This document shows positions 10,784-38,246 of a stretch of 64,000 bases of DNA, one piece after another (positions within the stretch are counted from its first letter, which is position 1; the number at the start of each line of letters is the position of its first letter). The stretch is taken from NCBI RefSeq assembly GCF_009914755.1, contig NC_060940.1; one strand, written 5' to 3'. Origin of the DNA: the human T2T-CHM13v2.0 reference genome, Homo sapiens. The notes under the pieces are model-generated. The model made no database searches. It was not told the DNA's origin and was given only the letters and a program-made list of their open reading frames with translations. The position numbers and the translations under genes are program-made.

Positions 10784-11117
<334 letters not shown>

Positions 11118-12123: not shown

Positions 12124-12455
<332 letters not shown>

Positions 12456-12644: not shown

Positions 12645-12857
<213 letters not shown>

Positions 12858-14626: not shown

Positions 14627-14714
14627 TTTATTTTATTATTATTATACTTTAAGTTTTAGGGTACATGTGCACAACGTGCAGGTTTGTTACATATGTATAC
14701 ATGTGCCATGTGGG
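14627..14714 (-). mobile_element. Very short, 5'-truncated L1PA insertion with a 16-bp TSD
   Basis: L1PA 3' terminus (ttatactttaagttttagggtacatgtgcacaacgtgcaggtttgttac); TSD gatattggaaagtttt at 14611-14626 and 14715-14730. Confidence 0.9.
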
Positions 14715-15129
14715 GATATTGGAAAGTTTTAAGAAAAATCTGATCAACACCAATTTTTTAACTGTTACATTTACACTCAAAACGGGACCATTGCAAAGAG
14801 TCAACAGCAGGGGGCTGAAACAAATGTCTATAAACACTTTGATGTAATGCTTTTCAAATTCCCAAGATCATAAACAGAAGCAGCCTTCTTGGAGCATAGC
14901 TCCTGGTGTTTCACCATTCACACACCAACAGCACTGTTTGGAACCGGTCTTCTTGGAGCTAGGCTCTGCCCCACTGCTCCTGGAGCTCACTTCTGTGGAA
15001 ACCTGCACATATCCCTGCATGCTCTCTGATCTTGTGACTAGAACTCAGAGCCCCAGCCAGCTGAGCTGCAGGTTTTGAGAACAATTCAGCTGCCATGATG
15101 GTAGAACTAAGTGTTCATGATTACAAATT

Positions 15130-15853: not shown

Positions 15854-16046
15854 AATCTTGCTTCCTTTGAGGAACCAGTTTACAAATGGATGACTATGAT
15901 CAAGGCCACCTTAGTGTTTGCAACATCCAAAGTATTTCCGTTAGTTTCAAATTCATTTGCGGTCACACTCTTTGCTAAAATGGCTACCAGAAATATCACC
16001 ATGATCACTTGGTTTACACTATTGGCAAAGTGGTGGCAAAAGTAGA

Positions 16047-16350
16047 TTTTTGTTTTTCTTTTTGAGACAAGGTCTGGCTCCATCACCCAGGGCTGGTGTG
16101 CAGTGATGTGATCACAGTTCACTACAGCCTCAACTTCCCAGGCTCAGGCAATTCTCCCACCTCAAACTCCCAGGTAGCTAGGACTACTACAGCTGCCTGC
16201 CACCATGCCCGGCTAATTTTTTTAAAAAAACTGTACAGACAGGGTTCACTGTGTTACCCAGCAGGTCTTCAACTCCTGAGCTCAAGTGATCCACTCACCT
16301 CAGCCTCCTGAAGTGCTGGGATAACAGGCATGAGCCACTGAGCTCAGCCG
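16047..16350 (-). mobile_element. AluJ-type SINE
   Basis: Diverged reverse Alu dimer. Confidence 0.85.
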
Positions 16351-17518
16351 CAAAGGGCTCATTTTTAAATGTAGATATACACTGAGGTATACCTACAACA
16401 GACACTATATCTTCAATTGCAGACATACACTGAGGTGATTCAGAATGACAGTATTATCTGGAGTCATGGACAAAGGTCACAAAACTAACTTGTCCCATGC
16501 CTGGCATGATCTTGATCTGCTGCTGCTGCTCAGTGTGAACAAGGGCTGCTCCCTTGTCTTGCACAGATGCAGCCTGCACAGCTGTCCTCACTGTCGAGCA
16601 GGCACCCAGGAAGGCTCTGCTGGAAATGCCTCCCTGCTCTCCCTGCCTGCCAGCTGCAGGTCCCTTCCCTTCACAGCAGTCATGAGGTCAGATTGGAAGG
16701 GAGCCCTGGTGAAGCTGCGTTTCAGTGTCATGTTGGTGCATCTGGGAGGAACCCCATGACTCCACAAGACTCCTTGCACTCTCATGGGCAACTCCAGACC
16801 CCAGCATGCTGCTGCGGATGTCTGAGTACCCACGGAGCTTTGTGAGTGTGGTGGGCATGGGGAGATGCCCCAGAAATGCTTCTCACACTGCAGGAGGCGA
16901 ACGTTGGAGCTTCTAACTCATCAGGTTAATTTCCAAACACATGCAACACTCCCAATGGGGAGGGGCCAGGGCACAGGAATCTGTGGCTATTTAACTTCAT
17001 ATCTCAAGGTTCCTATAAAAACAGATCTTCAGATAAAATGGGGAGGAAAGGACCAGCAAAGGCAACTATACAAAGGGTGACTTAGGTTGAAGCTATAACT
17101 TCTCCATAGTCCAGAGTCCTTAAGACCTTAACAGTGGCCAATTATTTCAAAGGCCAAATGTTTGTCCCTTAAAAAGGGACTGAAACTGGCAGATAGCTTC
17201 TAAAAAGCTATAAAGATATTTATTGTACTGTGTCATTCTAATAGTACACTTGTAAGAGGTTTGCCAAAAAACAATCAGAAAAATGCTTTTCAGTTTATCC
17301 AGGAGGTTATTACAACAATAACACATCAAGACCTACCCATGAATGCCAAAAAATATAAACTGTTATACTAAAGCTGGATAGAGAGAAGTCTGTGGTCTTA
17401 TGCCTATTTCCTTTATCTGCACGATGAAACCTATAAAGATATTGTTTACAGGGTTAACTTGGAGAGCAAATGAGGTATGGAAATTGGTTACACAGTTCAC
17501 CAAAACCTTACAAACTCA

Positions 17519-17719
<201 letters not shown>

Positions 17720-19559
17720 TCAGCTTAAGTGTGGTGATACGAACATTTAAAAATGAAAGATTTCTTCCGGTTTTGACCAGAAAGTAAGTGCCTTTTATTC
17801 TTATGTTCTGCAGAGACTTTGCTCAGACAAAGCAAGAGGCCAAATCACAGTCATAGTCAGATACCTCTGCAGCCTACTCTGCCTATAGACATTTCCAGCC
17901 CAATTTTGGTCACAGGGAGGACTGGACATCTCTGCGGGCATGAAGAGAGGCACCATCAGCACCTTCACACTCATTAAAGGCAGCACAAATTCAGGCCCAG
18001 TGCAGATTAAGGTTGTTCAGGAAACACTCCAGTGCTGTCTGTGTGCAGCATCATGCCTGGCTGGCAGGTAGATAGGAATTTTACAGGTATACCATGCTTG
18101 AATATGTAACACTCAAGTGATACTGAGAACACTGCTGTCTTCTCCTTTTCACAATAACTAACCCGCTCTTGGGACACCAGCTGAGGAACTGCAGATCAAG
18201 GTCACTTCCCAATGCCTGCCATGCAGACAGCATGACAAGCACAGGTCTCTGTGGCTGAGAAATAATCTCCGTATTCAGTGCTTGATAAGGAACACATGAG
18301 TATGAAAGGAGGGTCCTGCTCACAGCCCCTATGTTCCACGTCTCCACAATCTCTTCAAGAAAACTCATTTCTTGTTCTATAGTATCTGCATTCAGTCAAT
18401 TCAGTTGGGTTTTAGGCAGAGACAGCTGTCGGCCTCTGTATCCCTGGGGTTCCTCTCAACATGCCAAGCAGTTTGTGAGACAATCTCAGAAAGTATTTTC
18501 TATCTATCCAATCTCTATCCTATAAAGAACTTGGTGAGGGACCAGCTGAGTGGAGGTTACAGAGGTGAGCGGTGAGGCGTTGCTATCCCAGAGGGTGCTC
18601 TGCAGAAGAGTATGTCTCTATGCTACTTGACATCTTTGTATCAAGATCAAAGGAAAACAGTTCATTTTAAGAGAGTTCATTTATTGTCTGAAGGTTATCA
18701 GATTGGCGGCTCAGATATGGCAATGTTCTCCAAACTCAACTGTGTTTTCAAAATCAAATGGCTCTTGAACATGATATGTTCTTATGAGAGATTCTGCTCC
18801 CTTTCCCCCTAACTCTGCACTATTGAGTATCCCAGGAATGACCCTCCCTCCCAGGGTTCAACTCCACAGCACTCATTAGAGAGCACTTAAACAGCATTGG
18901 CAAGCCCTCAACTTCCTGTCACCTTTACTGGTAAGCTGGACCTGCTGACACTCACCGAAACCACTTGCCCTCCTGGGTCAGTGAGAAAGCTCCTTTTTTA
19001 ACACCAACTCTTCTATCAGCACAGTGGATCCCATCCCACTTTTGCAGAACACTGTTCCCCAAATCACCTCTTCTTGAAGCCTTTCTCCCTCTCTGCCAGA
19101 GATTTCCCCCAATATGAACGTGTTTCCTGTTCCCATCCTGCTCCCCACAGCTTCCCAGAGGCATCCTCTCAATTTGCTCACAGCATCAGGCCCTGTTGCC
19201 AGCTCCTCACCTCCCATCTCTCCTTAACCCACCTCACCCACCCCCATCACTCGCCTCAGACTCCTCTTGCAAAGGTCCTCAGAGTCTTGACACTTACAAA
19301 CCAGAGCCCTTCACCCCAAGGCTCCACTCTCCAAGCTGGCCCTAATCTTGTCCAGGGAATTGCCATTGGCCTAGCTCCTGGGGACTAACACTTAAATGTG
19401 AGTTACCCTGTTTCAATCTGTGTGCACTCCCTCTATGCCTACCTTCACTGGTAGGCTGCCTGCTTCAGATTCTGAGCCGCCATGTGTCACGGCTCACCTA
19501 TATCACCCTATTTGCTTCTTGGTAATCTTCTCTGCCCCAACCTTCCTCCCAACTGTGGT

Positions 19560-20130
19560 CTACTCTCCCCAAAGCCGTCACCATAACCTCTTAAATTAAG
19601 AACACTGCACTCCCCTCCTCAAGATCTACCATGAGCGCCCCCATCAAACTGGAATAAAACCTGAGCTTCTTCCCATGGCCTGCAAGCCAAAGGGCTCTGT
19701 GAGCTGTCGCACTGCCTGTGCAGCCTCATCTCTTCCATTCTTTCCTTCATTCCTCTCACCACGTGGGCCCCCTGGTGTTTGTTCCTTGAACACACATGAA
19801 ATGTGTTTCTGTCTCAGTCTCAGCACTCATCCTACTTCCTGTCATGCCAGCACTTCTTATCGTCCTCGCTTTATAGTCAGGTCACTGTTCAAATGTGACC
19901 TCTCTAGAGATGCTCTTCCTGATCATTCTATTTGAAATAATGAGCCCCTCTCATCACTCTGTCTTTATCCTGCTTTATCGTTTTGCTATTTTCCATAACC
20001 TAAAAAAATGCTTTCCTCATTGCAACATGAGCACATAAAGACAAGGACTGTGTTCAACCTGTCCTCTTCTCTACCCCAGCACTTAGAAGAATGGGACAGG
20101 GTCGGCATGCAGGGGGTGTTTATGGAACGG
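19560..20130. mobile_element. Ancient L2 LINE fragment
   Basis: L2-like motifs (ttcaaatgtgacctctctagagatgctcttcctgatc, cccagcacttagaa). Confidence 0.5.
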
Positions 20131-20299
20131 ACAACTTCTTGGCAGCATTTAGCCCTGTGACCACAGCCTTTCCTATCTTGACCCCTTTGCTCTTCTTTTA
20201 TTATCCTCTCCTGCTCTTCCTCCTCCCACTCTAGCCACTTTACTGGGGGCTTGTCCCTTACATGCTGGTAGTCCTTACACAGCTATCTTCTGTCCACCT

Positions 20300-20780
<481 letters not shown>

Positions 20781-21715
20781 AGCAGGTACTCTTACTCCTT
20801 ATTCCTTATTTCCAGTTCAGATTCATGGTCCAGTCCCATAGATACAAATATTGACTGTACACGGCCACTCTGCTATCTTACAGGCACACCAAATTTAGCC
20901 TGTCTACAGTGAACTCCCCCTTCTTCCAATCCAGCTTTCCCTCCTGTGTCAGCTCTCTCTCTCTAGCTGGAAGTTCCACTTCTGCTTCCTGCCAGCATGT
21001 GCTGAGCATTCCAAATGGCCTGCAGCTCCATGAAGAGGACTGCACCTGATCCAATGCCCATGGAGGGATTTCTATGCAGGTGCCTAGCAGAAGCCATCTC
21101 TTCTAAGCTCTAGCCAGATGCTAAAGGAGAGGGTACTACTGTTCTAAGTATCTTTTCTCTCCTGGCTGCATGGTTGACACTCCTCTACAGGTTAGTGTGG
21201 GGAGGGGTAAATCAATCCCAGCCATCTGAAAAGGGCTTCATATTCAGAATGAGTCTCACCACAGGAATTCTGTGAGAATGATGTAGATGTAAGGACACAG
21301 CTATGGCTTAGCAGGCTACCTAGCAAAGCCTGTGTCCAAGTCTTCCTGGTACCACGTTCCTGGGCAATTTCTGGAGCAGGCACAAGAGGTCAGCAGGAAC
21401 AACAAAGCATTCAGAGCAGCAGCTCCCAGTCACAGCATGCATCAGAAGTGCCCGGGGAATATGGCCTGGGACTCAGCTTAGATCTACATTGGAATCTGTT
21501 GAGGAAGAAACCAGAAATCTCTCCTGCTGCCTTTAATAGCAATTATTCTGTGATAAGAAAAGCAATGGCATCATTTTAAACCATAATGATGATTCAACTC
21601 AAATATGTGTATTTAATGGCTTGCACAGGTTTCTCTTAAAAGATCTGATGATAATTTCAGGAATCTACTTTTAGTTAGAAACATGGCCATACGCTGTGTA
21701 GGAGACCAGTTGTTA

Positions 21716-21922
<207 letters not shown>

Positions 21923-22451
21923 TTAAGATGGCAGTGTTCACATTTGTGCCCATGTGTCCCTTACAACAATTTTGATGAGATAAAATGTCTTTTTATTTTA
22001 AAAATATAAACAGAAGGATATTAAAATATTTTTGGTTTTCTGTAAACATAGGCCCTAAGGTGGACCTGTGGCTATCATATATCTGAAGAAGGAAGTTTTT
22101 AAATTTTTGTAGCATTTAAACTGATTTAAATTGTTTTCTAATTCTATTTACAGAAGTTGTGCATATTTGTTAGGACTATTTACAAATATTTATATTGTTT
22201 GCTGCTATAGAAAATTATTTTTTAAATGACACATTTTGTTATTTGGATGGTATATTTACTCCCCTTAGCACACTAATTAAGCAAAGCTGCAAGTCAGCTC
22301 TTACTCCAGTGTGCCCACTTTACAACACTCCTTATATAAGATGATTAGACACAACAGAGGGAAGACTTAAAGGTGGGTGAGTCTGACTTCAGCATGAACT
22401 AAATATAACTCTATGAGACAAAAATAGAACCTCAAATAAAGCAACACTTAC

Positions 22452-22503
22452 TGGAAGTGGATGTACTGGCTCTTCAAAAATAGCCAGAGATCTATTTGCA
22501 TAT
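22452..22503 (-). CDS. CCNYL1B: Cyclin Y-like paralog exon 6: (R)YANRSLAIFEEPVHPLP
   Basis: 52 bp, ttttatag|...|gtaagt; homologous to RDANRSLDIFDERSHPLT. Confidence 0.88.
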
Positions 22504-23119
22504 CTATAAAATAAGAACGTGCATTCAAGAAATTAATTCGGGAATTGTTAATATCTTAGTAAAATATCTGCTTGGGAGTAGGGCATGGAGGGTGGAGAGA
22601 GATACCTCTTGTTTGCTTTGGTAAAATTTGTTCATCAAAAGAGTTTTTGCAAATTTTTCTCCTGGATCCTGGCCTTCAGAGGGTTTCTTGACCTGTTTTT
22701 CTTCAGCACACTATGTCGTGAACTGTGAAGTCTTTTCTACATTGATGAGCCAGACTTGCCTTTAAATATTGACCCCCGCTAACAGGCAATGGTAATAAAC
22801 TATATCTATTTTCACTCCTCTAACCACATGCTGGAACGCAAGAGCATTTTATAAAGCAGTAGTGGTTGGCAATAAACTTATAACTTGTAATAAATGTGAA
22901 TGAGATTCAGATTTACCAAATCTTCCTTTATTACATGTTTATCATATTTGTTTAAGTAGTTTGAGTTACAAACTTAATTGCCTTTTTATTTTAAAAGAGG
23001 CCAGTCTTAATGAACTTTAAAAAACTAACACATTGTATGCTCATTTAGGAAACCAGTGGTTCTCCAAATGTGGTTTGAGGATCCCTGAGATTCCCTAGGA
23101 GGCCCATGATGTCAAAAGT

Positions 23120-23415
23120 TCTTTTTTTTGAGACAGGGTTTTGCTCTTTCACCCAGGATGGAGCACAGTGGTACAAACATGGCTCACTGCAGGCTTGACT
23201 CCCTGGGCTCAAGCGATCCTCCTGCCTCAGCCTCCCATGGAGCTGGGATGAAATGTGCACACCACCATGCCCAGCTAATTTTTAATTCTTTTCTGGTATA
23301 GATGGGGTCTTGCCACATTACTCAGGCTAGTCTCAAACTCCTGGTCCCAAATAATTCTCCCACCTTGGCCTCCCAAAGTGCAGGAATTACAGGTGTCAAC
23401 CACCACCTATGGCCC
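23120..23415 (-). mobile_element. AluJ-type SINE nested in the Charlie element
   Basis: Reverse Alu dimer. Confidence 0.85.
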
Positions 23416-23746
23416 AAAATGTTCTTATAAGAATACTAATTCAACCTGAGAAGCTGATTGAAAATAAAACATAATTTATTACTTTCTAAAAGTATTAAGA
23501 CATTGCTTGCTTTTTCACTGTTCAACACTTGTAATGATTGCATAAAAGCAAAAGTGGGTAAAACTTCTTGTTTCTCAGTAAGAATAAGGGCTGTGGTACC
23601 AAATTATACTAGTATTCATTACACTCTTCACTCCCCCTTGCAGTTTTTATTAAAATATCCTGCTTCACTTAAGAATATCCTTGATGAAACAGTAAAAATT
23701 AATGGTGTTATTAAGTCCTGAACTCTCTTTTAAGTATTCTAAGTAG

Positions 23747-24800
23747 TGGTGCAGGAAGTCAGGGACCCCGAACAGAGGGACCAGCTGGAGCCAAGGCAGA
23801 AGAACATAAACTGTGAAGATTTCATGGACATTTATCAGTTCCCAAAATTAATACTTTTATAATTTCTTATGCCTGTCTTTTCTGCAATCTCTGAACATAA
23901 ATTGTAAAGATTTCATGGACATTTATCACTTCTCTAGTAATACTCTTATAATTTCTTATGCCTGTCTTTACTTTAATCTCTTAATCCCATTATCTCCATA
24001 AGCTGACAATGTACATCACCTCAGGACCACTATTGTACAAATTGACTGTAAACGTGTGTTTGAACAGTATGAAATCAGTGCACCTTGAAAAAGAACAGAA
24101 TAACAACGATTTAAGGGAACAAGGGAAGATAACCATAAGGTCTGACTGCCTGTGGGGTTGGGCAGAATACAGCCATATTTTTCTTCTTGCAGAAAGCCTA
24201 TGAATGGATGTGCGAGTAGGAGAAATATTGCTGAATTCTTTTCCCAGCAAGGAATAACCCTGGGGAAGAAATGCATTCCTGGGGGGAGGTCTATGGATGG
24301 CCGCTCTGGGAGTGTCTGTCTGATGCGGTTGAGATAAGGACTGAAATACGTGCTGGTCTCCTGCAGCGCCCTCAAGCTTACTAGGATTGGGAAATTCCAG
24401 CCTGGTAAATTCTAGTCAGACCATTTCTCTGTTCTTGAACCCTGTTTCCTGTTAAGATGTTTATCAAGACAATGCATGCACAGCAGGACATAGACCCTCA
24501 TCAGTAATTCTAATTTTGCCTTCACCTTGTGATCTTTTATTGCCTTTTGAAGCATGTGATCCTTGTGAGCTACTCCCTGTTCATACACCCCCTCCCCTTT
24601 TAAAATCCCTAATAAAAACTTGCTGATTTTGCGGCTCAGGGTCGTCATCACGGTCCTACCAATATGTGATGACACCCCTGGAGGCCCAGCTGTAAAATTC
24701 CTCTCTTTGTACTCTTTTTCTTTATTTCTCAGACTGGCCGACACTTAAAGAAAATAGAAAAGAACCTACGTTGAAATATTGGGGGCTGGTTTCCCCAATA
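23747..24800 (+). mobile_element. MER11 solo LTR (HERV-K HML-8)
   Basis: Matches the recalled MER11 start (ggaagtcagggaccccgaac...gaagatttcatggacatttat), with an internal tandem repeat; 6-bp TSD aagtag at 23741-23746 and 24801-24806. Confidence 0.85.
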
Positions 24801-25637
24801 AAGTAGGAAGTTCACATAAACCACTTCTGCATACTGAAGTATGGGTATGTTAAAGAAAAGCACTTGTGATTTAATTGTGAGCTGAACAAGCAAATTTTTA
24901 ACAGAACACCATTTCTATCTGAAAGTTTGACTGACTGTCATTCTCAAAAAGAAGTCAAATGAGTCTGTCATTTCAAGGAAAATAACAAGTATTTGTTGTC
25001 TATAATAAAGCTAAAGCTTTCAAGCTAAAATCAGGACTTGGAAAACTCATACCTACTACTGTGAGCTTGACGGCATCTCAATATTTGAAGACATTTTTAT
25101 AATCATGGTGATACTAATGAAAGTGAGTTTTTGACACTATCAATGAACATGAATTAATATTTTCCAAATAGCCAATGCATAATATTATAAAAGACAGTAA
25201 GTGGAGAGATCCATTTATGGTATGAGAAAGATCAGTGAGTATTAGTGGAATGAATTCATTGATATGTACAATCCCATTATAACTATTTTAATAAGTCAGC
25301 ACTTGTGAAGTTTTGGTGTGGTTAAAGAATACCCACGATTACCTGAAAGCTTTAAAAATACACATTTTTCCTACTACACATTTGCATGAGGCTAGTTCAT
25401 CTTTTTATTTCTTCTTTACAATAAATTGCAAACAAGACATAAACAAATACACTTTGGGACCCTCAATAATTTAAGAGTTAAAAGAGTCTTACAGACCAAA
25501 AAACCCACAAATGATTCACTTTAATACTGTAAAGTAAGCACTCTACAGCTTATGTCTATAGTTATGACCTAACAGCATGTTTCATATTATACAAAGTGAT
25601 GAGCTGGAATAACAAGGCAGGTTTTCAAAGAGCTCAC

Positions 25638-25673
25638 CTGTGCTTTATGTTGTAATATATTGCCAAAGCCACA
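25638..25673 (-). CDS. CCNYL1B: Cyclin Y-like paralog exon 5: (S)VALAIYYNIKH(R)
   Basis: 36 bp, ccacag|...|gtgagc; homologous to CV(A/T)LAIYYHIKNR. Confidence 0.88.
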
Positions 25674-26871
25674 CTGTGGAGGGAAAAAATATATTTGTAA
25701 GAACTGATTTTATCATTGGTTAGGCCTGAATACATGTTTTTAAAAGGGGGAGGAGGAATTCTCTCAGTGGCCCTGAAATCCTCTTGTTCAAAACAGTACC
25801 ATATGAGCACTTTTCTTTTGTTTTAGCTCTCTGGCTTTATAGTGAAAATAGGAGAACCAAAATGCTAGGCAATATGCTGTTAGAAGATGTTTCTGCTGAT
25901 GGTTATTATATATAAATAATTACATATTTTCCCTGTCATTTGCTATTCTACCCATAGAACCTTTCATCCTGTGCAAGTCACTTACATCTATGTGTACATA
26001 AGCTTACATTTAGGCCATATAGTAGTGTTTTGCTTGTTAAGTGGCTAGGCCCTGCATTTCAGCTGATTTAGTTCTCCATCGCCTACTCACCCATTTATCA
26101 TTAGTTCCCTAAAAGCACACAATGATTGTGCTTTATACCAAATAAAGTAATTTAAAATCACCTCTGCATAATTATTAACAGAAAATTTATTAGTAAATAT
26201 AATGCACACAAAAATTGATGACACTTGTAACTATCCTGAAATAAGCAGCACTAAAGAGCATAACACAGCATCATACAATATTCATGACAGGTATTTCCAC
26301 ATTCGTTTAAACAAAATATTAGTGAACAAATACAACTCTTCAGATGTATGTTACTGTGGTCCTCAGTCATCCTCAGATGGTGTGTGTCAGCAAACAGGGG
26401 CTTCTCTTGGATAAGTTCTGTGCTTCCATTTGCCCTCAGCATTTAAAATGAGGCTCAGAATAATTTGAGAAGGCAAATTTGAGTTGTAAAAAGTAGACCT
26501 TACAACATTATTAGCATCTAAGATCGATATTTCTATAGTGCCTCAAACAGTTCCATCTCCAAATTGATTTCAAAATCACAGAATTTGAAGTTACATGCTG
26601 AAAAGGCCACTGAACCTTACATGACACTCCATGAACCACCCATTTTACAAATAAGAGAACCAAGGCTTCAAACTGACTTGCCCAAGATCCCCACATAGTG
26701 CTTTTGTGAACTGCAGGAGTTCACAAAACACTGTGGTATGGTTTAAATTTAAGCATATGCACACATACATAGAAATGACTTGCACAGATGAAAGGCTCTA
26801 TGAGTAGAAAGAAGAGCAAATGACAGGGAAACATGTAATTTATACGTTAGAACCATCACTCCTCCGTGCAA

Positions 26872-27050
26872 AGGAAGCAGTGGCCCCCACGTTTGCTGCA
26901 CACTGGACCACCTAAGGAGCTTTAAAAACAGCCTCACCACCAGCTGGAGACATTCTGATTTAATTGGCATTGTGTATGATTTGGGCATCAGGGTTGTTGG
27001 TAAAGATCCCCAGGTGAATCCAATGTGCTGCAAAGTTTGAGAATGACTGA
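26872..27050. mobile_element. MER5-type DNA transposon relic
   Basis: Termini cagtgg...aagtttgagaatgactg and internal gattctgatttaattgg-like motif. Confidence 0.5.
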
Positions 27051-27419
27051 GTTAGGGTTAAGGTCAGAATCATCTGGGATGCTTTTATCCATATAATGAT
27101 GCCTCACATACTTAACCATTTTTCTAAAAGGCTTGTGAGTGCCAGAGATGGAGGGAATGTGGAGCTGGGAAGATGCATGTGTTTGCAGAGATATATTTTG
27201 AAGAAACAGGTATAAGTGATTCTAATATGGCTCACTCATGCCTTTGAGTACAATGGACTACTAACCATGGAAAACATTTTTGAAAATCTTTCTGAAAGCC
27301 AATTTGCTCTATTAATTTGCTCAGTAAATCTTTATTTCATAAAAGTAAATATACCAAATGATCCCTTCTAAAATTTGAGAGCAAATTAAAACTAACTGTA
27401 TTTCAAAAATAGACTTCCA

Positions 27420-27550
27420 GGCCAGGCGTGGTAGCTCATGCCTGTAATCATAGCACTTTGGGAGGCTGAGTTGGGTGGATTGCTTGAGACCAGGAGTTTG
27501 AGACCAGCCTGGCCAACACAGCAAAACCCCATCTCTAAAAAAGAAAAAAA
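27420..27550 (+). mobile_element. FLAM/Alu left monomer
   Basis: Single Alu arm with an A tail. Confidence 0.8.
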
Positions 27551-28649
27551 TAATCTATTTTAAAACAACTTGTAAGAATTAGACTATGCTGGAAGAAAAA
27601 GCAGAACCTCTACTTGTTTGAGCAAGGTGAAGCTTAAAAACTACTTTTGAATTGCATACTGAAACATCAGAATCTTTTGAAATCATAAGAAACCAGGGAC
27701 TCTAGCCAAAACAGAGTGCCTTTTTACTTAGGGCTGAATACAAACATTAGGTGATGACTCCATAGAGGCCAAAACTCAGGGCTTTAGACACAGGTGGAGT
27801 CCAGTTCCTGATGAAACACAATTTGATCTCAATAATTGTTACACAGGAGAGAGGAAAGTGACATTATTATGAGTGTAAGTTTATCATTTTTAATTAAAGT
27901 AGAAGTTACTGACAAATTAGCTTAAAAAGCTAGTACATTAGAAACAAAATTAAGCTTGTAAGCTAGTCATGTTTATAGACTGGAAAGTTAAGTTAGGGAT
28001 AAGGACATTAACATGCTAAGGTAGTAGTTCTCAAACTGTTTTCCCAAAAATCAATGCTCGTAATCTAAGGAGATGTTAATAATGTTCCCTGGATGCCTCA
28101 ATGGAACTGGGCTTTGTTGTGACTTTTTAAATAAACTTGAACCCATCGTCCAAGGGTGTTTTGAAAAGGCATTTCTGATTGTGGCCTATGAAGTGCTCAT
28201 GCATGATGGCAAAATGTAAATGCAGATATACTATGGCACCACTGGAGGACAAGCTGTTCCTTCTTTCAAGAGTAGTTTCCAAAGTATTACCCATCGTCTT
28301 TGGCCTGTAAAGAACTAATAATTTTTCCCAGAAACTTTCAATAAAAAGCACCTCTCCTTCCCATTAGGTTCAACACTGTCATAACATAAATGCATCAAAT
28401 AAATAGCTACTCTTTTTCTGGGATTGCTTATTTGCTATCTGGCTTTCCCTTCTACCACACAGCATCTAAGGTTAAAAGAGAAACAGAAAGTTCATATTTA
28501 GGTCCCAGAAATCCATATATCATTGACATCAACTTCTTAAACTGCTTGCTGAAAAGGGCAACCAAATGGCTGAAATGACAGAGGATGGCTGTGATGCTTT
28601 TAGCATATGGGGGTCTGTCACTCAGCCCTTGGCAGCCTCGTTTTACTCA

Positions 28650-28796
<147 letters not shown>

Positions 28797-30066
28797 CTAC
28801 AAAAGTGTGGGCTTTTTTCCTTAGTCAAAATGTCAAATAATAAAGCATTAAGGTATTTTTTATACCCCATGACCTGCCTGAGTGTGGTATTGTGAGCAGC
28901 TCTATGGGAAACTCATTGGAGGTGCTTAACTTCTGCAGATGATGTTCGAGGAATGGGTTATAAAATGCTGCCCTTGCTATGATACCAATCGTCAAACCCA
29001 GGAAGCCTCTATTATGAATTCCCTTTATAAATAATGGGAAAAGTTTAAAGTAAGATTTCATGGTTTTTTATTATGCAGTAAAAAGCAGCTGAGATTTTCT
29101 ATTTCTATTATTCATTAACTACAACAAAATGTCATACATTAAATAATATTGGCACAACAGCATTTTTATTGCAGTAAATAAAGACCTAATACTACATTCA
29201 CTAAATTACTAATCCTAAATATACTCATTCAAGAGACAGTGTGATGGAATCAGAATTTTAGAGTCAGAGATTCTGTGTGCCAGGGCTGCTCAGTGACCAA
29301 ACAATTGAGGGGCCATGGGTTTCTCTGGGCCTGTTTCCTTGGGGGAAGATAGAAAAAGTACTACTTTAAGACTCTCACATTTGAAAATCAGATGAGGAAA
29401 ACCACTTCAGGAATTTAACTTTCACTTCGTGTTTACATAAGACTGCTATTACATTACTCAAATGAGAACTTCCGAGAATACTTTGCATTCATTTCAAAAG
29501 TTGATTGATTTTATTCTGTAAGTAATTTGACACACATCATGGCACTGTCCTGCCTCAGTCATGCTGCTCTCTGCCCAGAATACCTATTTCTTTCCTCCTT
29601 ATCCCAGCAAGCTTCACCTCCTCTGCCTTCCGGGATGCCTCTGCCAGCAGCCACACCACAAAACATTTCCGGTTTTGTGTACTCGTCAGTCTAATTCACC
29701 GTGTGTTACATGATAGCAATTGCCTGCAAAGCATCCCCCTGGTGAAAAAGAAAGCCTCTCCAGGGGAGGGAGGGTCCTTCCTCTCCTACCTGCAGCTGCT
29801 GAGCACAGAATGTGGGAGAAATTAAGGAGTTCAATAAGTGCTTGACAAGTTATTTAAATCAGTTACAATTTGGAAGGTAAATCTTCCTACAGTTACAAAT
29901 TGGTGAAATTTATCTGCAGTGCTATCAGAGAGGTGACAGTGAACCTTTTGAGCCCTCTAGAAAATAAACTATTTATAAAACACTTTAAAAGTATCTATTC
30001 ATTTGTCGAGGGTGCAACAGTCAATATGGAAACTGCCTCATCTATGTTTAAAAAAATGCTCTTCCT

Positions 30067-30355
30067 GGCCGGGCACAGTGGCTCACTCCGGTAATCCCAG
30101 CCCTTTGGGAGGCTGAGGCAGGTGGATCATGAGGCCCGGAGTTCAAGACCAGCCTGGCCAAGATGGTGAAACCCCGTGTCTACTAAAAATACAAAAATTA
30201 GCCAGGTGTGGTGGTGGGTGCGTGTAATCTCAGCTACTCAGGAAGCTGAGACAGAGAATTGCTTGAACCTGGGAAACAGAGGTTGCAGTGAGCCGAGATC
30301 ATGCCACTGCATTCCAGCCTGTGTGACAGAGCAAGACTCTGTCTTAAAAAAAAAT
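30067..30355 (+). mobile_element. AluS-type SINE
   Basis: Full dimer; flanking aaaaaatgctct duplication. Confidence 0.9.
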
Positions 30356-31155
30356 GCTCTTTCTTAAAAATAATGGCAGTAACCAAATCCTAGTCACCAA
30401 ATGGTTGAAGAGATCAACAGCATTATTTAAAACCACAAAATACCAATTATTTTAGCTTTTAAAAAAATAACTCACATGAGCCTTCCTTCTTCCTATTGGG
30501 ATATGCTTGTCTGCATCATGTTATCACACTCTTCCATCAGGGTCTCCCACAAGTACATGAAAGACAGGGTAGGGAGGAGATCTAGCAGTTGTTTCTAAAA
30601 GTACACAGTATTTAAAAATTGCCTGTAGCCAATAATCAGAAATATCCATACAGTCTAACACCATTTTGCTTGTTTCAGATGCTTTTCACTGTAAATTCAC
30701 TTACTTCTTAACAAAAATCCCAGATGTTTTTGAACAATATTACTATTTGAAGGACCAAATTCTCCTTCAAGGTAGAAATGTTTTAACTCTAGCTAAACTC
30801 TTATGTCTCTTAAGCTATTCTATTAATGTATATACTTTACATTAACAGTGTATGTATGTCAATGTACATACTTTTATTGCCTGAAAAAACAAAAATAGCA
30901 TGAAAAATAAAAATGGACTCACTCAGATACTTTCATTCAAAGTGAAAGAAAGTATCCCTTAAGGTCACCACTATTAGGGGTAATACAGCATAATACTACG
31001 CGGTAACAAAAGTCAATTCTGAGAAAAAATCCATATATGAGAATAAAAAGAACAGAAAAAAAAACGCACCAAAACGCAGACTAGCTGGTACAGCTTTAGG
31101 TGATACCTGTCCCCATTTTGTTCTATTTAAAATCTCATATAATGAACATATATTG

Positions 31156-31157
<2 letters not shown>

Positions 31158-31199
<42 letters not shown>

Positions 31200-31480
31200 T
31201 TTGAGGAAGTCTTGCTGTGTTTCCCACCCTGGAGTGCAGTGGCCTGAACTCAGCTTACTGCAACCGCCGCCTCCCAAGTTCAACCAATTCTCCTGCCTTG
31301 GCCTCCTGTGTAGCTGGAAATACAGGCATGTGCCATCATGCCGGGCTAATTTTTGTATTTTTAGTAGAGATGGGGTTTCACCATGTCGGCCATGCTGGTC
31401 TCAAACTCCTGGCCTCAAGTGATCTGCCTGCCTCAGCCTCTCAAAGTGCTGGGATACAGGTGTGAGCCACCATGCTCAGC
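31158..31480 (-). mobile_element. AluS-type SINE with a (TG)n microsatellite (31158-31194) at its tail position
   Basis: (GT)n tract directly followed by a reverse Alu. Confidence 0.85.
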
Positions 31481-34101
31481 TCTCAAGATCACTTTTTTCT
31501 CCCCATTTTTTTAAGAGACATCTTTCAGATATTTTTAAAATAATTAATGACTTTTAGCTAACTTAAAAATTTATAACATTTTGTGTACTAACAAAAACAG
31601 CTCCATCTATGTTGCACAGCAATGGGACCACATGGCATGTATGGAGTTTGAATAGAATTCTTACACAAGGCCTGAGTGGAAAAGTGTTATGTGCTTATTG
31701 TAAGTATAAATAGAAATTGTCTGAATTAATGTCATAATTATGTTGAATTTAAACTTAGATTTACACTTATATATGGGTTAAATCATTAAATATGATGGAT
31801 TGACCAGAAATTTATTTTCTCTTCCTTCTGAAATCTCATTAGTATTATTCATAAAATAAACATTATACACAGGACCAGGAGACAAGATTGATGGCAGATC
31901 ATTCTGAGTCAATGATGCAAGGTGAAAAGCTGATAGAGGAGTTGCAACTGACATGGAAGCACAACTTTGGAGCTGACAGGGAGTGACTTGAACAGAAACA
32001 AGTGATCTTCTTTGTTTTGAAGAACCCAACTCAGGCTCCAAAATCAGAGGCACATGGTACCTGGGAAGGTAGGGTGAAATATACAACTGAAGCCAGCAAG
32101 GTCAACTGTAAATCTGTGCTTAGAGCCCCAAGTCCACCTCTCTTCCCATCTTAGAAGGAATTTGGATGTGTATTCTCTGGATATTTTATACCTGAGGGTT
32201 TCTGGGCTCAGAACTACTAGGGCTAAAACCTGGGAAATGGGAATAAATTGCACACACAAAGTGAAACTGCACCTTCCTTCCCAACCCTGCTTCTAGAAAG
32301 CCAGCAGCCGTGCTTGCACTGCCCAGGCAGAAAACTGGGAGATCCTCCTTGGAAGAAAACTAAACCATTGCAAAGAAAATACCCACATATAATACACTGA
32401 GTTTCCCCAAAAGAAAAGCTGGCTTGACCTCCAAATCCCCACAATGAGACCCCTCAGTGAACAAAGGTCCTGCTTCCAAATAGAGAAAGGCAAAGACTAC
32501 CACACATCTCAGGGAAGCCTCCAATGAGAGATCAAAACAACAGGAAAAAGGAATTCTGGGACCAGTAAAAATTAAGGAGCAAAACTTTTTAAAAAAATCT
32601 TAAAATACCCTTAAGGAGATTTTAAAAATTCAATAGAAGGGTTAGCGCAGAAAGTCAAAGAATCTCTAAGAAGCAGAACAAAAGACAAATTGGAAAATAG
32701 GAGGGGAAGAAATTAAAGATCAATGCAGAAATACTGCTATAAGAGGCCGAACATTTGAATCATAAGAATACTAAAATAATAATAAAACAGAGAATATAGG
32801 ACAATTCTCTAAAAGAGATAGTCTGCAGACTTAATGGCTGCAATAAAATAAAAGGTCCCCACAAAGCTGTATTATACAATTTCCGAATCCCAGGAATACA
32901 GAAGGTCTTAAAAAGCTCAAAAATGTAAAAATTGGTTACATATGATGTATCACACAATGGCAATAGTTTCAAGTACAGTATAATGAAAACACAATAGGGA
33001 AATTTCTTCAGAGCCATGAAACTTAGTTTTCACTCTAGAATTTTATACTCTATAACAAAAGAAGGGTTTGGAGAGAGGCTAGATCTCTATACATGTGTGT
33101 CCATGAGCCTTTCCTCAGAAACTGTGCTCCAGCACCACTGGGGAGTAACACAAGGCAGAGGGCAATGCACAGTCTAGGACTCAGGGATCCAACATGAGTG
33201 GGCGCATAAGAGTTCAGAGAGGGCTCCCAGGGAAACAGGCCCAGGGCAGCCTAGGGAAACACAGTCTATCCTGGAGGAGGATAACCAAAGGCCAAGGAAA
33301 GTTCCTTCAAGAAAAAACACAGAACATATGTTTTAGTAAATAAAACATTATTTTTGATAGGCATGTGACAAATGTTACACCACTTGGGGAAGAATAGCTG
33401 TTAAAAAAGAGGCAAAGGAACATAGTCAGAAAATTAATTCCACACACAAAATAATGAAGGAGGTGAAAACAAAGAGGCCAGCTGGGGGCTAATGGTCGTA
33501 TTTGGCTTTATGAGCTATCATGGGCTAGGAAAAGGGGGATTATCTGGGAGAAGTGCAGAAGTGTTCAGATTTCAGAAATATTTAAGAGAAACAATGAAGG
33601 ATGCACAAGGAGGAGGCACAGTCAGAACACTACATGACTCAGCAGTGAATAATATGTGCATAGTCATAATCATGTAAATATCAATTAGTGATTTAATAAA
33701 AAATGGGTTACAGGTGGAAGAAACGGGGAGGGAAATAAGGTCACAGTGGAGTGAGGAAGCTACGCTTTCACCTGCTATGACAGGAAGTCAGGAGAAAGTG
33801 TTGGAGAAAGTAGACTCAGCTATTTTTAATTTTATTTGAATACAAAAGATTAAATATTTAAGGCAGATATTTATATCACAACCAAATTGTGATATAATAT
33901 CACAATCACCCTTAAAAATGGGCACAGTAAGCTACAGACTTTCCTGTATAAATCTGATACTTAGGAAAATAGAAGAGATTTAGAAAGTCCATCAGAAAAG
34001 GATCACACTAACAGCACCGGCTCCCTGTTAAATTTTTAAGGAATCATGACAGACTTTTAATTCAAACAATCAATTTCTTAACTTTTCAAAAGTTTACTTA
34101 C

Positions 34102-34136
34102 ATAATATAGGTGAGAGCTGCTCCTCTTTTCTTGCA
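34102..34136 (-). CDS. CCNYL1B: Cyclin Y-like paralog exon 3: (V)QEKRSSSHLYY
   Basis: 35 bp, ttcttag|...|gtaagt; homologous to VREKRKSNHLNH. Confidence 0.85.
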
Positions 34137-34394
34137 CTAAGAATGAAAAAATAACTAATCAATTCTGGTATAAATACCATAGAATAAAAGTAGTTGCTAA
34201 TCATCTGATTATCACTATATAAAATGAGATAAAATTCCATTTTAAAAAATTCTTACCAACAAAAGTTATCATTTAAATAATCCGGCATAAAGTAAAATCT
34301 AAAAATATAGTTTTATTTTTGACCTAACAGATGTTCTATTACACAAAAATGAAAGAATCCCCATGTACACAAGGAAAGGCAAAACAAATTAGGC

Positions 34395-35095
34395 AACGTG
34401 TATGCCCTCCAAATCTCATGTTGAAATGTAGTCCCCAGTGTTGGAGGTGGGGAAGTGTTTGGATCACGGGGGCAGATCCCTCATGAATGGCTTAGCGCCA
34501 TCCCCTTGGTGATGAGGGAGTTCCTGCTCTGAGTTCATACATGATCTTCTTGGGTTTTTGTTGTTGTTGTGGTGGTTGTTCTGAGATGGGGTCTCACTCT
34601 GATGCCCAGGCTGGAGCACAGTGCCATGATTATGGTTCACTGCAACCTTGACCTCCTGGGCTCAAGTGATCCTCCCACCTTAGCCTGCGGAGTAGCTGGG
34701 GCTGCAAGCACGAACCACCACACCTGGCTAATTTTTAAATTTTTTGTAGAGACAGGGTCTCACTATGTTGGCCAAGGCTGGTCTCAGACTCCAGCCTCAA
34801 GTGATCTGCCTGCCTCAGCCTCCCAAAGTGCTGGGGTTACAGGCATGAGCCACCACACCTGGCCTGATCTGCTTGTTTAAAAGAAGGCGGCACCTCCCAC
34901 TCTCTCTTGCTCCTCCTCTCACCATGTGAGAGATGACTTCACCTTCCACCATGATTATTAGTTTCTTGAAGCCCTTGCCAGAAGCAGATGCTAGCACCAC
35001 ACTTCCTGTACAGCCTGTAGAACCGTGAGCCAATAAAGCCTCTTTTTTTATAAATTATCCAGTCTCAGGTATTCCTTCATAGAAATGCCAAAATA
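34395..35095 (+). mobile_element. MST-type MaLR LTR interrupted by an AluJ (about 34555-34865, minus strand)
   Basis: ccaaatctcatgttgaaatgta...ggaggtgggg and agaaccgtgagccaataaa MaLR motifs flank a reverse Alu. Confidence 0.75.
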
Positions 35096-36485
35096 CAGGA
35101 CAGATGAGAAATTTAGCTAATAAAAAATTTACCTATTGTATATCTGAACCCCTAAGCAGTAGTGTTTTCTGATTCTACATTTACACATAGCTTACTTTCA
35201 TTACCAAGATCTAATAGCTGACAGCTCTAAGAACCAGTTTCTGGCCAGGAGCCAGTCTTTAGATGCACTAGAATCCCTGCAAGCATCCAATGACTGATCG
35301 GTCGTCTACTAATATGTTACTGAAAAAATAAACAGGTCTTTACACAACTGAAAAGTAGCCTAGCTTAACTCAAATGTTAACATGAGTGTGCCAACCTAAA
35401 TGAACTTGGTATCCTCAGGACACAAAATCATTTCATTCTAATACAGGTCCAAAGAATAAAAGCTACAAGGGGGACTTGGGCCACACTTTGTTCCCTACAA
35501 TGCCTCCTTCTTTGAAGTTGAGCTGGTCTCACTGACACACATTTCTCACTGCTGAAGAGACAGGGGCATGGGGTAGGTTTTCTTCCACTTCCATACACTC
35601 TATGTGTGAGAAGCCCATGGCTCTGGAAGAAACTGAGAAATACAACAATCCTAACCAGAAGTTACCAGCTTGAGACAGGCAAAGTCCATACAAACTATGA
35701 AAATGCAGGGGAGAAACCCATTTTTTATTGTGCTGCATTACTTCAGATGTTATTATAGAAACCCCACTTCTTGTATTCTTGCTGTTGAAAACAACTGAAA
35801 AACATGGTGTATGGCTTTTTTGAAAAAACAGTAAGATTTAGCAGAATGTTACAAAAAAATAAGCAGGAGTACAGAAAACTCCTACAGTTCTAATTCTCAT
35901 CCTAAAACAAGCAGGATGTGGAAACTTTACACTAGTTTCACACACTAAGGCTAACCTGGAAAACAGCACAGGCCATGTTTACATTTCCATTACATTCGAA
36001 TGAAAAAGTTCTGAGTAGCATGAACATGGATGTGACAGGCTCATGCGGTTAGAGCACTGTGTAAAAAGGAGGCCAAAATCACGGATCCAATCTAGAACAA
36101 CAGATTCTTTTGATTTGTTCAAGTGAACTCCAAGCTGTAGCCTAAATCTTATCACTCATCATTAACATGTACTCTTTGGAGCAAGGGAAAAATGGGAAAG
36201 ATGTATGAAGAAAAAGGCATACATCCATGACTACTACACCAAATCATGTGGCCAATTAATTGCATTGATAAAAATGTCATCAAACGTGGAGACATAAAGC
36301 CTGCATGTTTCCATGAACAGTGTCAACTAAAGGAAATTATGTCACATATTAAAATAAGACAAGTAAATATATAAAAAGTTGAAATTTTTTTAACTAATAT
36401 CTGAGTTCCTCTAAATACTTTCTGTAATACATGAAACAGAAAGTTTGTAGTTTTTTGCTTGGAGGAAGAAACAATATTGTCTTAC

Positions 36486-36545
36486 CACTCATTTGATATT
36501 TTCTCAGGAAGAGTGTGCTTTCCCCTGGACAGTCAGAAGCAAAAT
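36486..36545 (-). CDS. CCNYL1B: Cyclin Y-like paralog exon 2: (N)FASDCPGESTLFLRKYQMS; 5 codons shorter than CCNYL1 but in frame
   Basis: 60 bp, ctctacag|...|gtaaga; homologous to [26 protein letters not shown]. Confidence 0.85.
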
Positions 36546-37180: not shown

Positions 37181-37870
37181 ATACATGAGACGTACATGAA
37201 AATGTGTTGTAAATCCTAAAGAATGATATAAAGAGTCTATTTTGGGCTCTCATCCAACACTACCCATCTACTACCTAGTGTGTAAAACCACTCCGAGGCC
37301 TACCTTACACCACCAAACGAGGAAAAACTTTCACAAGTACTTGCATGCTTTGTGTATAAAGGTACAATTCATTCACATACTATCTTTGTTCATTCTTTCA
37401 CGATTTTTTAATATTCCGAGAGTACAGTACTTTCCAGCAACAAAGCCACATTCATCATGAAGCTTAATTATTCAAACGTTTAAATAAATTAAGAGGTCAA
37501 CCAATGTTTAAACAGAAGAGCTGTAAGACACTTCCTCTATAGCAATGAAATCTGTAGCATACATTTTCTATTTTGAAAACTTAGTTTCTGCCTAGCCTTG
37601 GGGGATGAGAAAGGGGCCAGAACTGGGCACTGGGGTAGGGAGGAGGAGAGAAACCACCAGATGCTACAGGGAAAAAAAATTGGTTGCAGGGGGGAGGTGG
37701 GGGACGTAGGCACGAGGCAAGGCCAGTCCTCCTGCCTGGTGCCTGGGCCTAGGAAACCTGGCTAGGGGCAGGAGGGAGGAGTCCGAGGCTGTGGATGCCT
37801 CTGGGGGGACCTTGGGACAGCGGCTGCCAGAGGCTCACCTGAGGGCAAACACTATCAGTCGCCTCCTTAC

Positions 37871-38246
37871 TTTTGGGCATCTCCTGGTCACTGATGTGTT
37901 GCAGGTCATGGCCCTCGCGGGCTCCGAAATCCGACTGGGCAGGCTCCACAGCAGTGGGGTGTGGGGATTTTTTTTTTTTTTTACTGCCACCTCTGCCTCC
38001 GTGAGGTTATAGCTGCAGGGCGGTTCCGCCCACAGCACCCTGCGCTGGCTTTGCTTGGGGCTGGCATCAGGGAGCAGCATGTTCCATCTGCGGCGCCTCC
38101 GCTCCTCTCTGCCTTGGCCTACACCTTTGCTTGACGCTGCCTCATAGATGTCAGCGCTGCAGGACAGCTCCCCAGACCTCCTGCGCTGGCCCCGCTTGAG
38201 GCTGGCGTTGGTGCCCAAGCAATAGCTCAGCGTGGGCTATCCCCAT
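37871..38246 (-). CDS. CCNYL1B: Cyclin Y-like paralog exon 1: internally duplicated and frameshifted 5' part, intact 3' part (AVEPAQSDFGAREGHDLQHISDQEMPK); in-frame internal ATG at 37880
   Basis: Homologous to CCNYL1 MGNTLTCCVSPNASPKLGRRAGSAELYCASDIYEA...VEPAELDFGEGEGHHLQHISDREMPE; donor aaaa|gtaagg at 37870. Confidence 0.75.
37968..37982 (-). repeat. A15 mononucleotide tract inside exon 1
   Basis: 15 T on the + strand, counted directly. Confidence 0.95.

What the first reader, a model, noticed from the sequence alone, without database searches (positions are those of the whole stretch)
37871..38080. An A15 tract sets the reading frame of the cyclin Y paralog's N-terminus
Seen: an ATG at 38080 (context aacATGc) reads MLLPDASPKQSQRRVLWAEPPCSYNLTEAEVAV into a 15-A run. 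With A15 it leaves the cyclin frame, overlaps the internal ATG at 37880, and after splicing stops in exon 2 (83 aa). With A16 or A13 it joins the cyclin frame (...VKKKKKSPHPTAVEPAQSDF...) and gives a 352- or 351-aa full-length cyclin. Known: mononucleotide runs this long are slippage-prone, and ribosomes can slide on poly(A) lysine codons. Inference: tract length (germline allele, somatic microsatellite instability or slippage) could switch the locus between a repressive overlapping uORF and a long cyclin with a poly-Lys, NLS-like N-terminus, resembling phase variation.
Basis: partly seen in the sequence, partly recalled or inferred. Interest (0 to 1): 0.8.

Follow-up and report, generated by a model that had tools for sequence, protein, structure and literature searches.

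The report
Poly(A) insertion breaks CCNYL3's N-terminus
The 15-A run is real and does decide the reading frame, but it is a late insertion into the old N-terminal coding exon of a decaying cyclin Y-like gene copy, one of several breaks there, so it looks like ordinary pseudogene damage and not a switch.

Summary
An uninterrupted A15 (minus strand) lies at 37968-37982. The ATG at 38080 reads into it.

That model is not the annotated transcript. In NR_158158.1 no tract length from 11 to 19 gives more than 95 aa.

In T2T-CHM13, 34 of 34 other copies of this exon that cover the site lack the run. They read straight through a conserved "VAVAP" coding stretch, and CCNYL3 has a net +14 nt there. The near-miss in frame therefore reflects ancestry: the upstream ORF is the old N-terminal coding sequence.

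CCNYL3 carries other N-terminal lesions:
- a 4-nt insertion just after the ancestral ATG-GGG start (38246);
- a weakened ancestral donor;
- a derived donor at 37839;
- a stop-bearing extra exon.

Six AUGs precede the cyclin AUG.

Best reading (0.8): a lineage-specific, slippage-prone poly(A) insertion in a transcribed pseudogene. A length-controlled switch is arithmetically possible but unsupported. Tract-length variation between people could not be tested here. Interest is low.

The parts
37968..37982 (-). Uninterrupted A15 run (T15 on the + strand). It is a net +14 nt relative to every other copy of this exon in the genome.
   Evidence: length and coordinates; 34 of 34 copies that cover the site show a 14-nt gap here.
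37871..38080 (-). Exon 1 part of the ORF from ATG 38080. It totals 83 aa with the 37871 donor and 84 aa with the RefSeq donor, and overlaps the ATG at 37880. Upstream of the tract it is the old N-terminal coding frame.
   Evidence: Ancestral continuity.
37878..37880 (-). ATG that opens the intact 285-codon cyclin ORF under ancestral-type splicing. It is the seventh AUG of the RefSeq leader.
37869..37871 (-). Ancestral exon 1 donor: the exon ends at 37871 and the intron starts GTAAGG. Position -1 is A in CCNYL3 and G in 32 of 33 genomic copies. The processed copy on chr16 joins exon 1 to exon 2 exactly here.
37837..37839 (-). Donor used by NR_158158.1 (CAG|GTGAGC). It is derived: 0 of 33 genomic copies have GT here. 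It adds 32 nt and breaks the cyclin frame.
38244..38246 (-). Ancestral start codon (ATG GGG). It now opens only a 31-aa ORF.
   Evidence: ATG at this site in 24 of 35 other copies.
38236..38239 (-). 4-nt insertion just after the ancestral ATG-GGG-A, absent from all 34 other copies that cover it. This is the first frame break. Placement is uncertain by a base or so.
37993..38206 (-). Two copies of a tandem unit of about 141-144 nt inside the old N-terminal coding region (37993-38065 and 38137-38206). The ATG at 38080 lies at the start of the second unit.
30476..30594 (-). RefSeq exon 4 (119 nt). It is absent from the processed copy. If included, the cyclin frame ends at a stop within it (a poison exon).
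10658..36545 (-). Remaining coding exons of the 285-codon cyclin ORF: 36486-36545, 34102-34136, 28651-28751, 25638-25673, 22452-22503, 21746-21865, 17520-17686, 12654-12816 and 10658-10771. No stop or frameshift under ancestral-type splicing.
   Evidence: Cyclin_N hit: exon 9 alone E 0.047; the close processed copy reaches E 5.8e-8.

Best explanation
The A15 run is a CCNYL3-specific poly(A) insertion (net +14 nt) into the old N-terminal coding exon of a cyclin Y-like gene. The ancestor read in one frame from an ATG-GGG start (now 38246), through one or more units of about 144 nt and a conserved VAVAP stretch, into the cyclin part. The insertion shifts the frame by -1. That is why one more A (or two fewer) would rejoin the two frames. 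It is one of at least four lesions in the N-terminal part of a transcribed pseudogene. The others are a 4-nt insertion just after the start codon, a weakened ancestral donor with a new stronger donor 32 nt downstream, and inclusion of a stop-bearing extra exon. What is left is a long leader with six upstream AUGs ahead of an intact but probably poorly translated 285-codon cyclin ORF. Shown here: the tract, the frames, its absence from all other copies, the ancestral splice pattern and the other lesions. Inferred: that the tract varies in length between people like any A15 run, that such variation has no selected function, and how the run arose (unknown; no retroelement sequence accompanies it).
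For: Tract is derived:
- MAFFT of CCNYL3 with the 35 other copies of this exon found in the same genome. All 34 that cover the site lack the run and show a 14-nt gap; 1 (L045) is deleted there.
- the longest A/T run in the 25 short fetched loci is 4 or less.

Ancestral frame was continuous:
- the closest relative is an intronless copy at C16:23.776 Mb, 86-87% identical in exon 1 and 90-96% in exons 5-10. It reads QAEVAVAPHPTAVEPAQSD in a 180-codon open frame across the site and on into exons 2-3.
- a more distant processed cyclin Y-like copy (L019, chrX) reads DEVAVAPAAAEPPEFDFGEGEGHHLQHISDREMP in one frame with its cyclin part.

Splicing:
- the intronless copy holds exons 1, 2, 3 and 5-11 contiguously, has no exon 4, and has exon 1 ending at the 37871 donor.
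- the ancestral donor has G at -1 in 32 of 33 genomic copies against A in CCNYL3. The RefSeq donor GT is present in 0 of 33.

Other evidence:
- the 4-nt insertion after ATG-GGG-A is absent from all 34 covering copies.
- there are 4 stops between 38246 and the tract in that frame.
- six AUGs precede 37880.
- the RefSeq transcript gives at most 95 aa at tract lengths 11-19.
- substitutions polarised with two outgroups give 7 synonymous and 13 non-synonymous on the CCNYL3 branch, against 8 and 14 on the dead processed copy (17 unresolved). CCNYL3 therefore shows no sign of being more constrained.
- RefSeq labels the gene a transcribed pseudogene (hub table). A preprint's introduction says CCNYL2 and CCNYL3 are typically treated as pseudogenes.
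Against: - The 285-codon cyclin ORF has no disabling lesion, while the processed copy has 3 frameshifting indels and 1 stop over the same stretch, plus a 3-nt deletion. Pairwise dN/dS is 0.58. Both could mean the cyclin part was kept by selection for part of its history. Against this, all four disabling events falling on one named branch has a chance of about 6% if the branches are equal, and the polarised counts show no difference.
- The ancestral donor GT is still present, so an ancestral-type mRNA may still be made.
- The tract's length in other people, in apes and in GRCh38 was not seen. If in-frame alleles are common, the locus would be less dead than described.
- Only one genome was examined.
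Confidence: 0.8

Rival explanations
1. Germline or somatic changes in tract length toggle the locus between a repressive overlapping upstream ORF (A15, A14) and a 351-353-aa cyclin with a poly-Lys N-terminus (A13, A16, A19), with functional consequences.
For: The arithmetic holds under ancestral-type splicing. A15 exceeds the roughly 10-repeat [A/T]n hypermutability threshold (PMC2940325). The ancestral donor GT and an intact 285-codon ORF persist. The ATG at 38080 has A at -3.
Against: The tract is a derived insertion into coding sequence. The curated transcript gives at most 95 aa at any length. 38080 is the fourth AUG, and a 6-codon ORF from 38087 overlaps it. The long product would lack the ancestral Met-Gly start. 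A16 would itself be a polyA track that lowers output. The substitution pattern gives no sign of constraint. No paper among the 5 that hold CCNYL3, or the 20 listed of 21 in the related search, deals with the tract, judged by title and abstract start.
Confidence: 0.07
2. Translational recoding. On the A15 allele, ribosomes that start at 38080 slide by -1 on the run and make some long cyclin without any DNA change.
For: Ribosomes slide on homopolymeric A, and A11 was enough for robust sliding products in an E. coli cell-free system (PMC4363877, passages). PolyA tracks cause stalling and frameshifting in eukaryotic cells (PMC5263891, passages). The needed shift is a single base.
Against: The cited work describes sliding as having no single outcome and as leading mainly to premature termination and mRNA decay. 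The isoform and initiation problems of the switch model apply here too. Nothing in the sequence beyond the run suggests programmed frameshifting, and none was tested.
Confidence: 0.05
3. Miscount. The true length in this genome is not 15, because homopolymers are hard to size, and the frame relation described is an assembly artefact.
For: Accurate sizing of A/T homopolymers is described as very challenging on current platforms (PMC11878640, abstract only). The whole argument turns on a single base.
Against: No read-level data were available, so nothing points to an error at this site. Whatever the exact count, the derived nature of the insertion and the other lesions stand.
Confidence: 0.04

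Closest known systems
Frameshifting indels in the first coding exon of duplicated, transcribed pseudogenes
   Same: A lineage-specific indel whose length is not a multiple of three disconnects the start of the ORF from the rest. Several independent lesions accumulate, and RefSeq already labels the gene a transcribed pseudogene.
   Different: The indel is a pure 14-nt poly(A) gain with no retroelement attached. Its length is expected to keep changing, so the lesion could in principle revert.
Coding mononucleotide microsatellites that shift frame by slippage (for example the A-runs hit in mismatch-repair-deficient tumours; recalled, not from a call)
   Same: An A-run inside an ORF whose length modulo 3 decides the downstream frame. 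Run lengths above about 10 are hypermutable (PMC2940325).
   Different: In those genes the reference state is in frame and functional. Here the reference state is out of frame, the gene is annotated non-coding, and the run is longer than typical coding runs.
PolyA tracks as translational attenuators, and ribosome sliding (Koutmou 2015, PMC4363877; Arthur 2017, PMC5263891)
   Same: Eleven or more consecutive A inside a translated frame. Stalling, sliding and frame loss are expected for ribosomes that started at 38080.
   Different: Those tracks lie in bona fide coding sequences. Here translation of the upstream ORF is itself unshown, and the tract is a recent insertion and not a conserved feature.
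Bacterial phase variation by homopolymeric tracts (contingency loci; for example the Bordetella paper seen only in the listing)
   Same: Tract length modulo 3 turns a long ORF on or off.
   Different: Phase variation is a high-rate, reversible switch selected within clonal populations. Nothing comparable is shown or expected for a single-copy human germline locus, and the 'on' state here needs an unannotated isoform.
Cyclin Y / cyclin Y-like 1 genes
   Same: The exon-intron layout of the cyclin part matches, and a 285-codon ORF with a Cyclin_N-type box is present. The exon 1 coding region is recognisably the same as in CCNYL1-like processed copies (VAVAP ... LQHISD.EMP).
   Different: The N-terminal Met-Gly start is disconnected, an internal duplication of about 144 nt is present, and the nucleotide identity of the CDS to the CCNYL1-like copies is only 74%.

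Membership tests
Cyclin Y-like (cyclin box protein) | Cyclin_N domain above Pfam's curated cut-off | tested here: inconclusive
   CCNYL3 exons could only be scanned one at a time. Exon 9 alone (55 aa) gives Cyclin_N E 0.047, 13.9 bits against a cut-off of 23; exons 8 and 10 gave nothing. The contiguous 169-aa frame of the close processed copy (83% aa identity over the aligned 151 aa) gives Cyclin_N E 5.8e-8, 32.9 bits.
Cyclin Y-like (cyclin box protein) | N-terminal Met-Gly start (myristoylation/palmitoylation signal) joined in frame to the cyclin part | tested here: not met
   ATG-GGG is present at 38246, but it is followed by a 4-nt insertion and 4 stops in its frame. The A tract adds a second frame break. 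The role of the signal is taken from the introduction of 10.64898/2025.12.15.694124.
Cyclin Y-like (cyclin box protein) | Uninterrupted ORF through the cyclin exons | tested here: met
   285 codons from ATG 37880 under ancestral-type splicing. This is not the case in the RefSeq transcript, which gives 27 aa.
Phase-variable (contingency) locus | Hypermutable simple repeat within an ORF | tested here: met
   An uninterrupted A15 lies in the ORF from 38080. The [A/T]n threshold is about 10 (PMC2940325).
Phase-variable (contingency) locus | A change in repeat length turns a functional product on or off | tested here: inconclusive
   The ORF goes from 83 to 352 aa only under an unannotated isoform; in NR_158158.1 it is at most 95 aa at lengths 11-19. 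Function of any product was not tested.
Phase-variable (contingency) locus | Observed reversible length variation among individuals or cells | not testable with these tools
   Only one human genome is held. The exon 1 search found CCNYL3 itself as the only 100% match, and the next best is 87%.
PolyA track (translational attenuator) | At least 11-12 consecutive A within a translated coding sequence | tested here: inconclusive
   The run length is met. Whether the ORF from 38080 is translated was not testable. It is the fourth AUG of the leader.
Transcribed pseudogene | Disabling lesions relative to the ancestral coding structure | tested here: met
   A +4 nt and a +14 nt indel in exon 1, a derived donor adding 32 nt, and an exon 4 with stops.

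The most novel reading that the evidence does not exclude
The tract is length-polymorphic in humans. In carriers of A16 or A13 alleles, transcripts that still use the ancestral donor (37871) and skip exon 4 encode a 351-352-aa cyclin Y-like protein. This protein would have a Lys-rich insert and no lipid anchor, that is, a soluble cyclin Y-like isoform present in some people and absent in others. A15 carriers might make traces of it by -1 ribosome sliding. This would be a microsatellite-controlled presence/absence polymorphism of a protein isoform in a gene now filed as a pseudogene.
Probability: 0.05. Interest if true: 0.55.

Novelty: new member of a known kind. Interest (0 to 1): 0.2.

Why it matters
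As it stands this is a worked example of how a duplicated gene loses its N-terminus: two indels, a donor shift and a poison exon, with the cyclin box left open. It also shows why 'one base from a long ORF' should be expected at such loci and is not, on its own, a sign of regulation. It would matter more only if in-frame alleles turn out to be common and expressed. CCNYL3 would then be a polymorphic gene/pseudogene, which is of interest for annotation and for cyclin Y/CDK14-18 biology. The tract is also a practical hazard for annotation, because a single-base homopolymer miscount changes the predicted product from 83 to 352 aa.

Tried and rejected
- Retroelement tail: I asked whether the run is the tail of an Alu or L1. 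The alignment shows a pure A gain with no extra sequence, so this was rejected. How the run arose stays open.
- Near-identical paralogues for comparing tract length: none exists. The exon 1 search gives one 100% match (the window itself), one locus at 81-87%, and the rest at 66-71% apart from two short fragments of one broken copy (77% and 82%).
- Constraint on the cyclin ORF: pairwise dN/dS is 0.58, but the polarised counts are equal on the CCNYL3 and dead-copy branches, with 17 sites unresolved. The result is inconclusive and is not used as support either way.
- A short BLAST probe across the tract aligned through the gap in only 3 of 35 loci. It was replaced by a MAFFT alignment.
- Pfam on single CCNYL3 exons was mostly too short to score.
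- Literature: 5 papers hold 'CCNYL3', and 21 hold CCNYL2, 'cyclin-Y-like protein 3' or related terms (20 listed). By title and abstract start none concerns the tract. I read passages of two of them only. Their supplements were not opened.

Full report
**1. What is there**

On the gene's (minus) strand the window holds an uninterrupted run of 15 A at 37968-37982. It is one of 8 A/T runs of 12 or more in the 64-kb window.

The ATG at 38080 (context tggaacATGc) reads 33 codons into the run, then four Lys and an Asn, and continues out of the cyclin frame. The cyclin frame itself is open upstream of its ATG (37880) only as far as 38006.

**2.

The single annotated transcript is NR_158158.1. It uses a donor at 37839 and includes a 119-nt exon 4 (30476-30594). 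In that transcript:
- the ORF from 38080 is 84 aa;
- the ORF from 37880 is only 27 aa.

Under that model:
- 38080 gives 83 aa;
- 37880 opens an intact 285-codon ORF through the cyclin exons.

I changed the tract length in a script. Under this splice form the ORF from 38080 is 351 aa (A13), 57 (A14), 83 (A15), 352 (A16) and 353 (A19). Under the RefSeq form it never exceeds 95 aa for lengths 11-19.

**3. The isoform is the ancestral one**

The window's genome is held (T2T-CHM13; the window is C16:39060001-39124000). A DNA search with exon 1 (37839-38300) found 38 places:
- the window itself at 100%;
- one locus at C16:23.776 Mb (81-87%, two matches);
- 33 further matches at 66-71% on C4 (193.28 Mb), C9, C10, C13, C14, C15, C20, C21 and C22;
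- two short fragments of one broken copy on C20 (77% and 82%).

The C16:23.776 Mb locus is an intronless copy. It holds exons 1, 2, 3 and 5-11 contiguously, with exon 1 ending exactly at the 37871 donor and no exon 4.

This copy's homology also runs 360 nt upstream of the RefSeq start at 38567. Transcripts that contain 38080 are therefore not in doubt.

In 33 genomic copies the ancestral donor has G at -1 followed by GT in 32, whereas CCNYL3 has A at -1. At the RefSeq donor, 0 of 33 have GT. The present-day annotated donor is thus a derived site that adds 32 nt and breaks the frame.

**4. The tract is a derived insertion into coding sequence**

I fetched all the other exon 1 copies and aligned 36 rows.
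- All 34 copies that cover the site lack the run and show a 14-nt gap. They read GTAG (30 of the 34; minor variants in 4) followed by a short GC-rich stretch.
- One copy (L045) is deleted there.
- The longest A/T run in the 25 short loci is 4 or less.

The intronless copy reads QAEVAVAPHPTAVEPAQSD in a 180-codon open frame that crosses the site and continues into exons 2-3. A more distant processed cyclin Y-like copy on the X (L019) reads DEVAVAPAAAEPPEFDFGEGEGHHLQHISDREMP in one frame with its cyclin part.

The tract (+14, equivalent to -1 in frame) broke it. This explains why A16 or A13 would rejoin the frames: ancestry accounts for it without any design.

**5. Other lesions**

- The ancestral start is the ATG-GGG at 38246; this site is ATG in 24 of 35 other copies.
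- CCNYL3 has a 4-nt insertion directly after it, absent from all 34 copies that cover it. Four stops follow in that frame.
- Since +4 and +14 sum to 18, the 38246 ATG is in the cyclin frame, but this does not rescue it.
- The ATG at 38080 is an internal Met of the second of two units of about 141-144 nt. That site is ATG in 18 and ACG in 9 of 35 other copies.
- In the annotated leader, AUGs at 38246, 38145 and 38087 precede 38080, and six AUGs precede 37880.
- An in-frame allele would thus yield, at best, a protein starting at an internal Met without the N-terminal Met-Gly. The introduction of a preprint describes the N-terminal lipidation signals as essential for cyclin Y membrane localisation, and says CCNYL2 and CCNYL3 are typically treated as pseudogenes (10.64898/2025.12.15.694124, passages).

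**6. Is the cyclin part alive?**

A protein search with exon 9 found only 8 places in the genome, so the roughly 35 dispersed exon 1 copies lack a cyclin box.

Compared with CCNYL3's 285 codons, the intronless copy has three frameshifting indels, a 3-nt deletion and one stop; CCNYL3 has none. Pairwise dN is 0.064, dS is 0.109 and the ratio is 0.58.

Polarised with two outgroup copies, the CCNYL3 branch has 7 synonymous and 13 non-synonymous changes. The dead copy has 8 and 14, and 17 sites are unresolved. This is mixed evidence: an open frame, but no excess constraint.

For family membership, the contiguous frame of the intronless copy reaches Pfam Cyclin_N at E 5.8e-8 (32.9 bits, cut-off 23). 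CCNYL3 exon 9 alone reaches E 0.047.

**7. What is known about such runs**

- [A/T]n runs behave as microsatellites above about 10 repeats (PMC2940325, passages), so length variation at A15 is expected. It could not be checked here.
- Ribosomes slide on homopolymeric A. A11 was enough for robust truncated product in an E. coli cell-free system, and in eukaryotes the resulting premature termination leads to mRNA decay (PMC4363877, passages).
- PolyA tracks of 9-36 A lower protein and mRNA output in many systems (PMC5263891, passages).
- These points make both the slippage and the sliding ideas mechanistically possible. They also predict weak output from any ORF that crosses the run.
- Homopolymer length is hard to measure (PMC11878640, abstract), and the frame argument rests on a single base.

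**8. Verdict**

The best reading (0.8) is a lineage-specific, slippage-prone poly(A) insertion that is one of several N-terminal lesions in a transcribed pseudogene.

The switch model (0.07), recoding by sliding (0.05) and a miscount (0.04) are not excluded.

No paper among those listed by two searches deals with the tract. I judged this from titles and abstract starts, and read passages of two papers.

The finding is a new instance of a known kind and of low interest. That would change only if population and expression data show common in-frame alleles on a translated isoform.

Noticed in passing
L002/L014 = G000:C16:23775110-23778999: An intronless (processed) copy of a CCNYL3-type mRNA, 86-96% identical by exon. 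It has three copies of the ~144-nt exon 1 unit against two in CCNYL3. Its start codon is changed to ACG, and it carries several frameshifts and a stop. Its homology continues 360 nt upstream of the RefSeq transcription start, into a masked repeat.
   Followed up: partly
G000: C4:193.28 Mb; C9:42.3, 47.7, 77.2 Mb; C10:26.60-26.67, 26.97, 49.18 Mb; C13, C14, C15, C20, C21, C22: About 35 dispersed copies of CCNYL3-like exon 1 plus the start of intron 1, at 66-71% identity. They have no cyclin-box exon nearby in the genome-wide exon 9 search. Twelve lie on C10 in three clusters with a spacing of 1.8-4.7 kb, and many lie in subtelomeric, pericentromeric or acrocentric regions. The two whose frames I translated (L005, L009) run into stops. 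What they belong to was not worked out.
   Followed up: partly
window 30476-30594 (-): RefSeq exon 4 (119 nt) has no counterpart in the processed copy. The cyclin frame hits a stop inside it, so it acts as a poison exon in the curated transcript.
   Followed up: partly
window 37837-37871 (-): Donor shift. The ancestral donor lost its -1 G, and a new consensus donor (CAG|GTGAGC) arose 32 nt downstream by a change seen in none of 33 other copies.
   Followed up: yes
window 38236-38246 and 37968-37982 (-): The two exon 1 insertions (+4 and +14) sum to 18. The ancestral ATG is therefore again in the cyclin frame, but four stops lie between them.
   Followed up: yes
L019 = G000:C23:64246443-64249595 (-): A processed CCNYL1-like copy on the X chromosome whose frame is open over about 360 codons apart from one stop. 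It is 93% identical in nucleotides to another processed copy on C19 (L017), which is heavily broken.
   Followed up: no
window 37981-38067 (-): A 28-codon ORF from the ATG at 38067 ends at a TAA formed by the T before the run and its first two A. The other copies have TAG at the same place.
   Followed up: no
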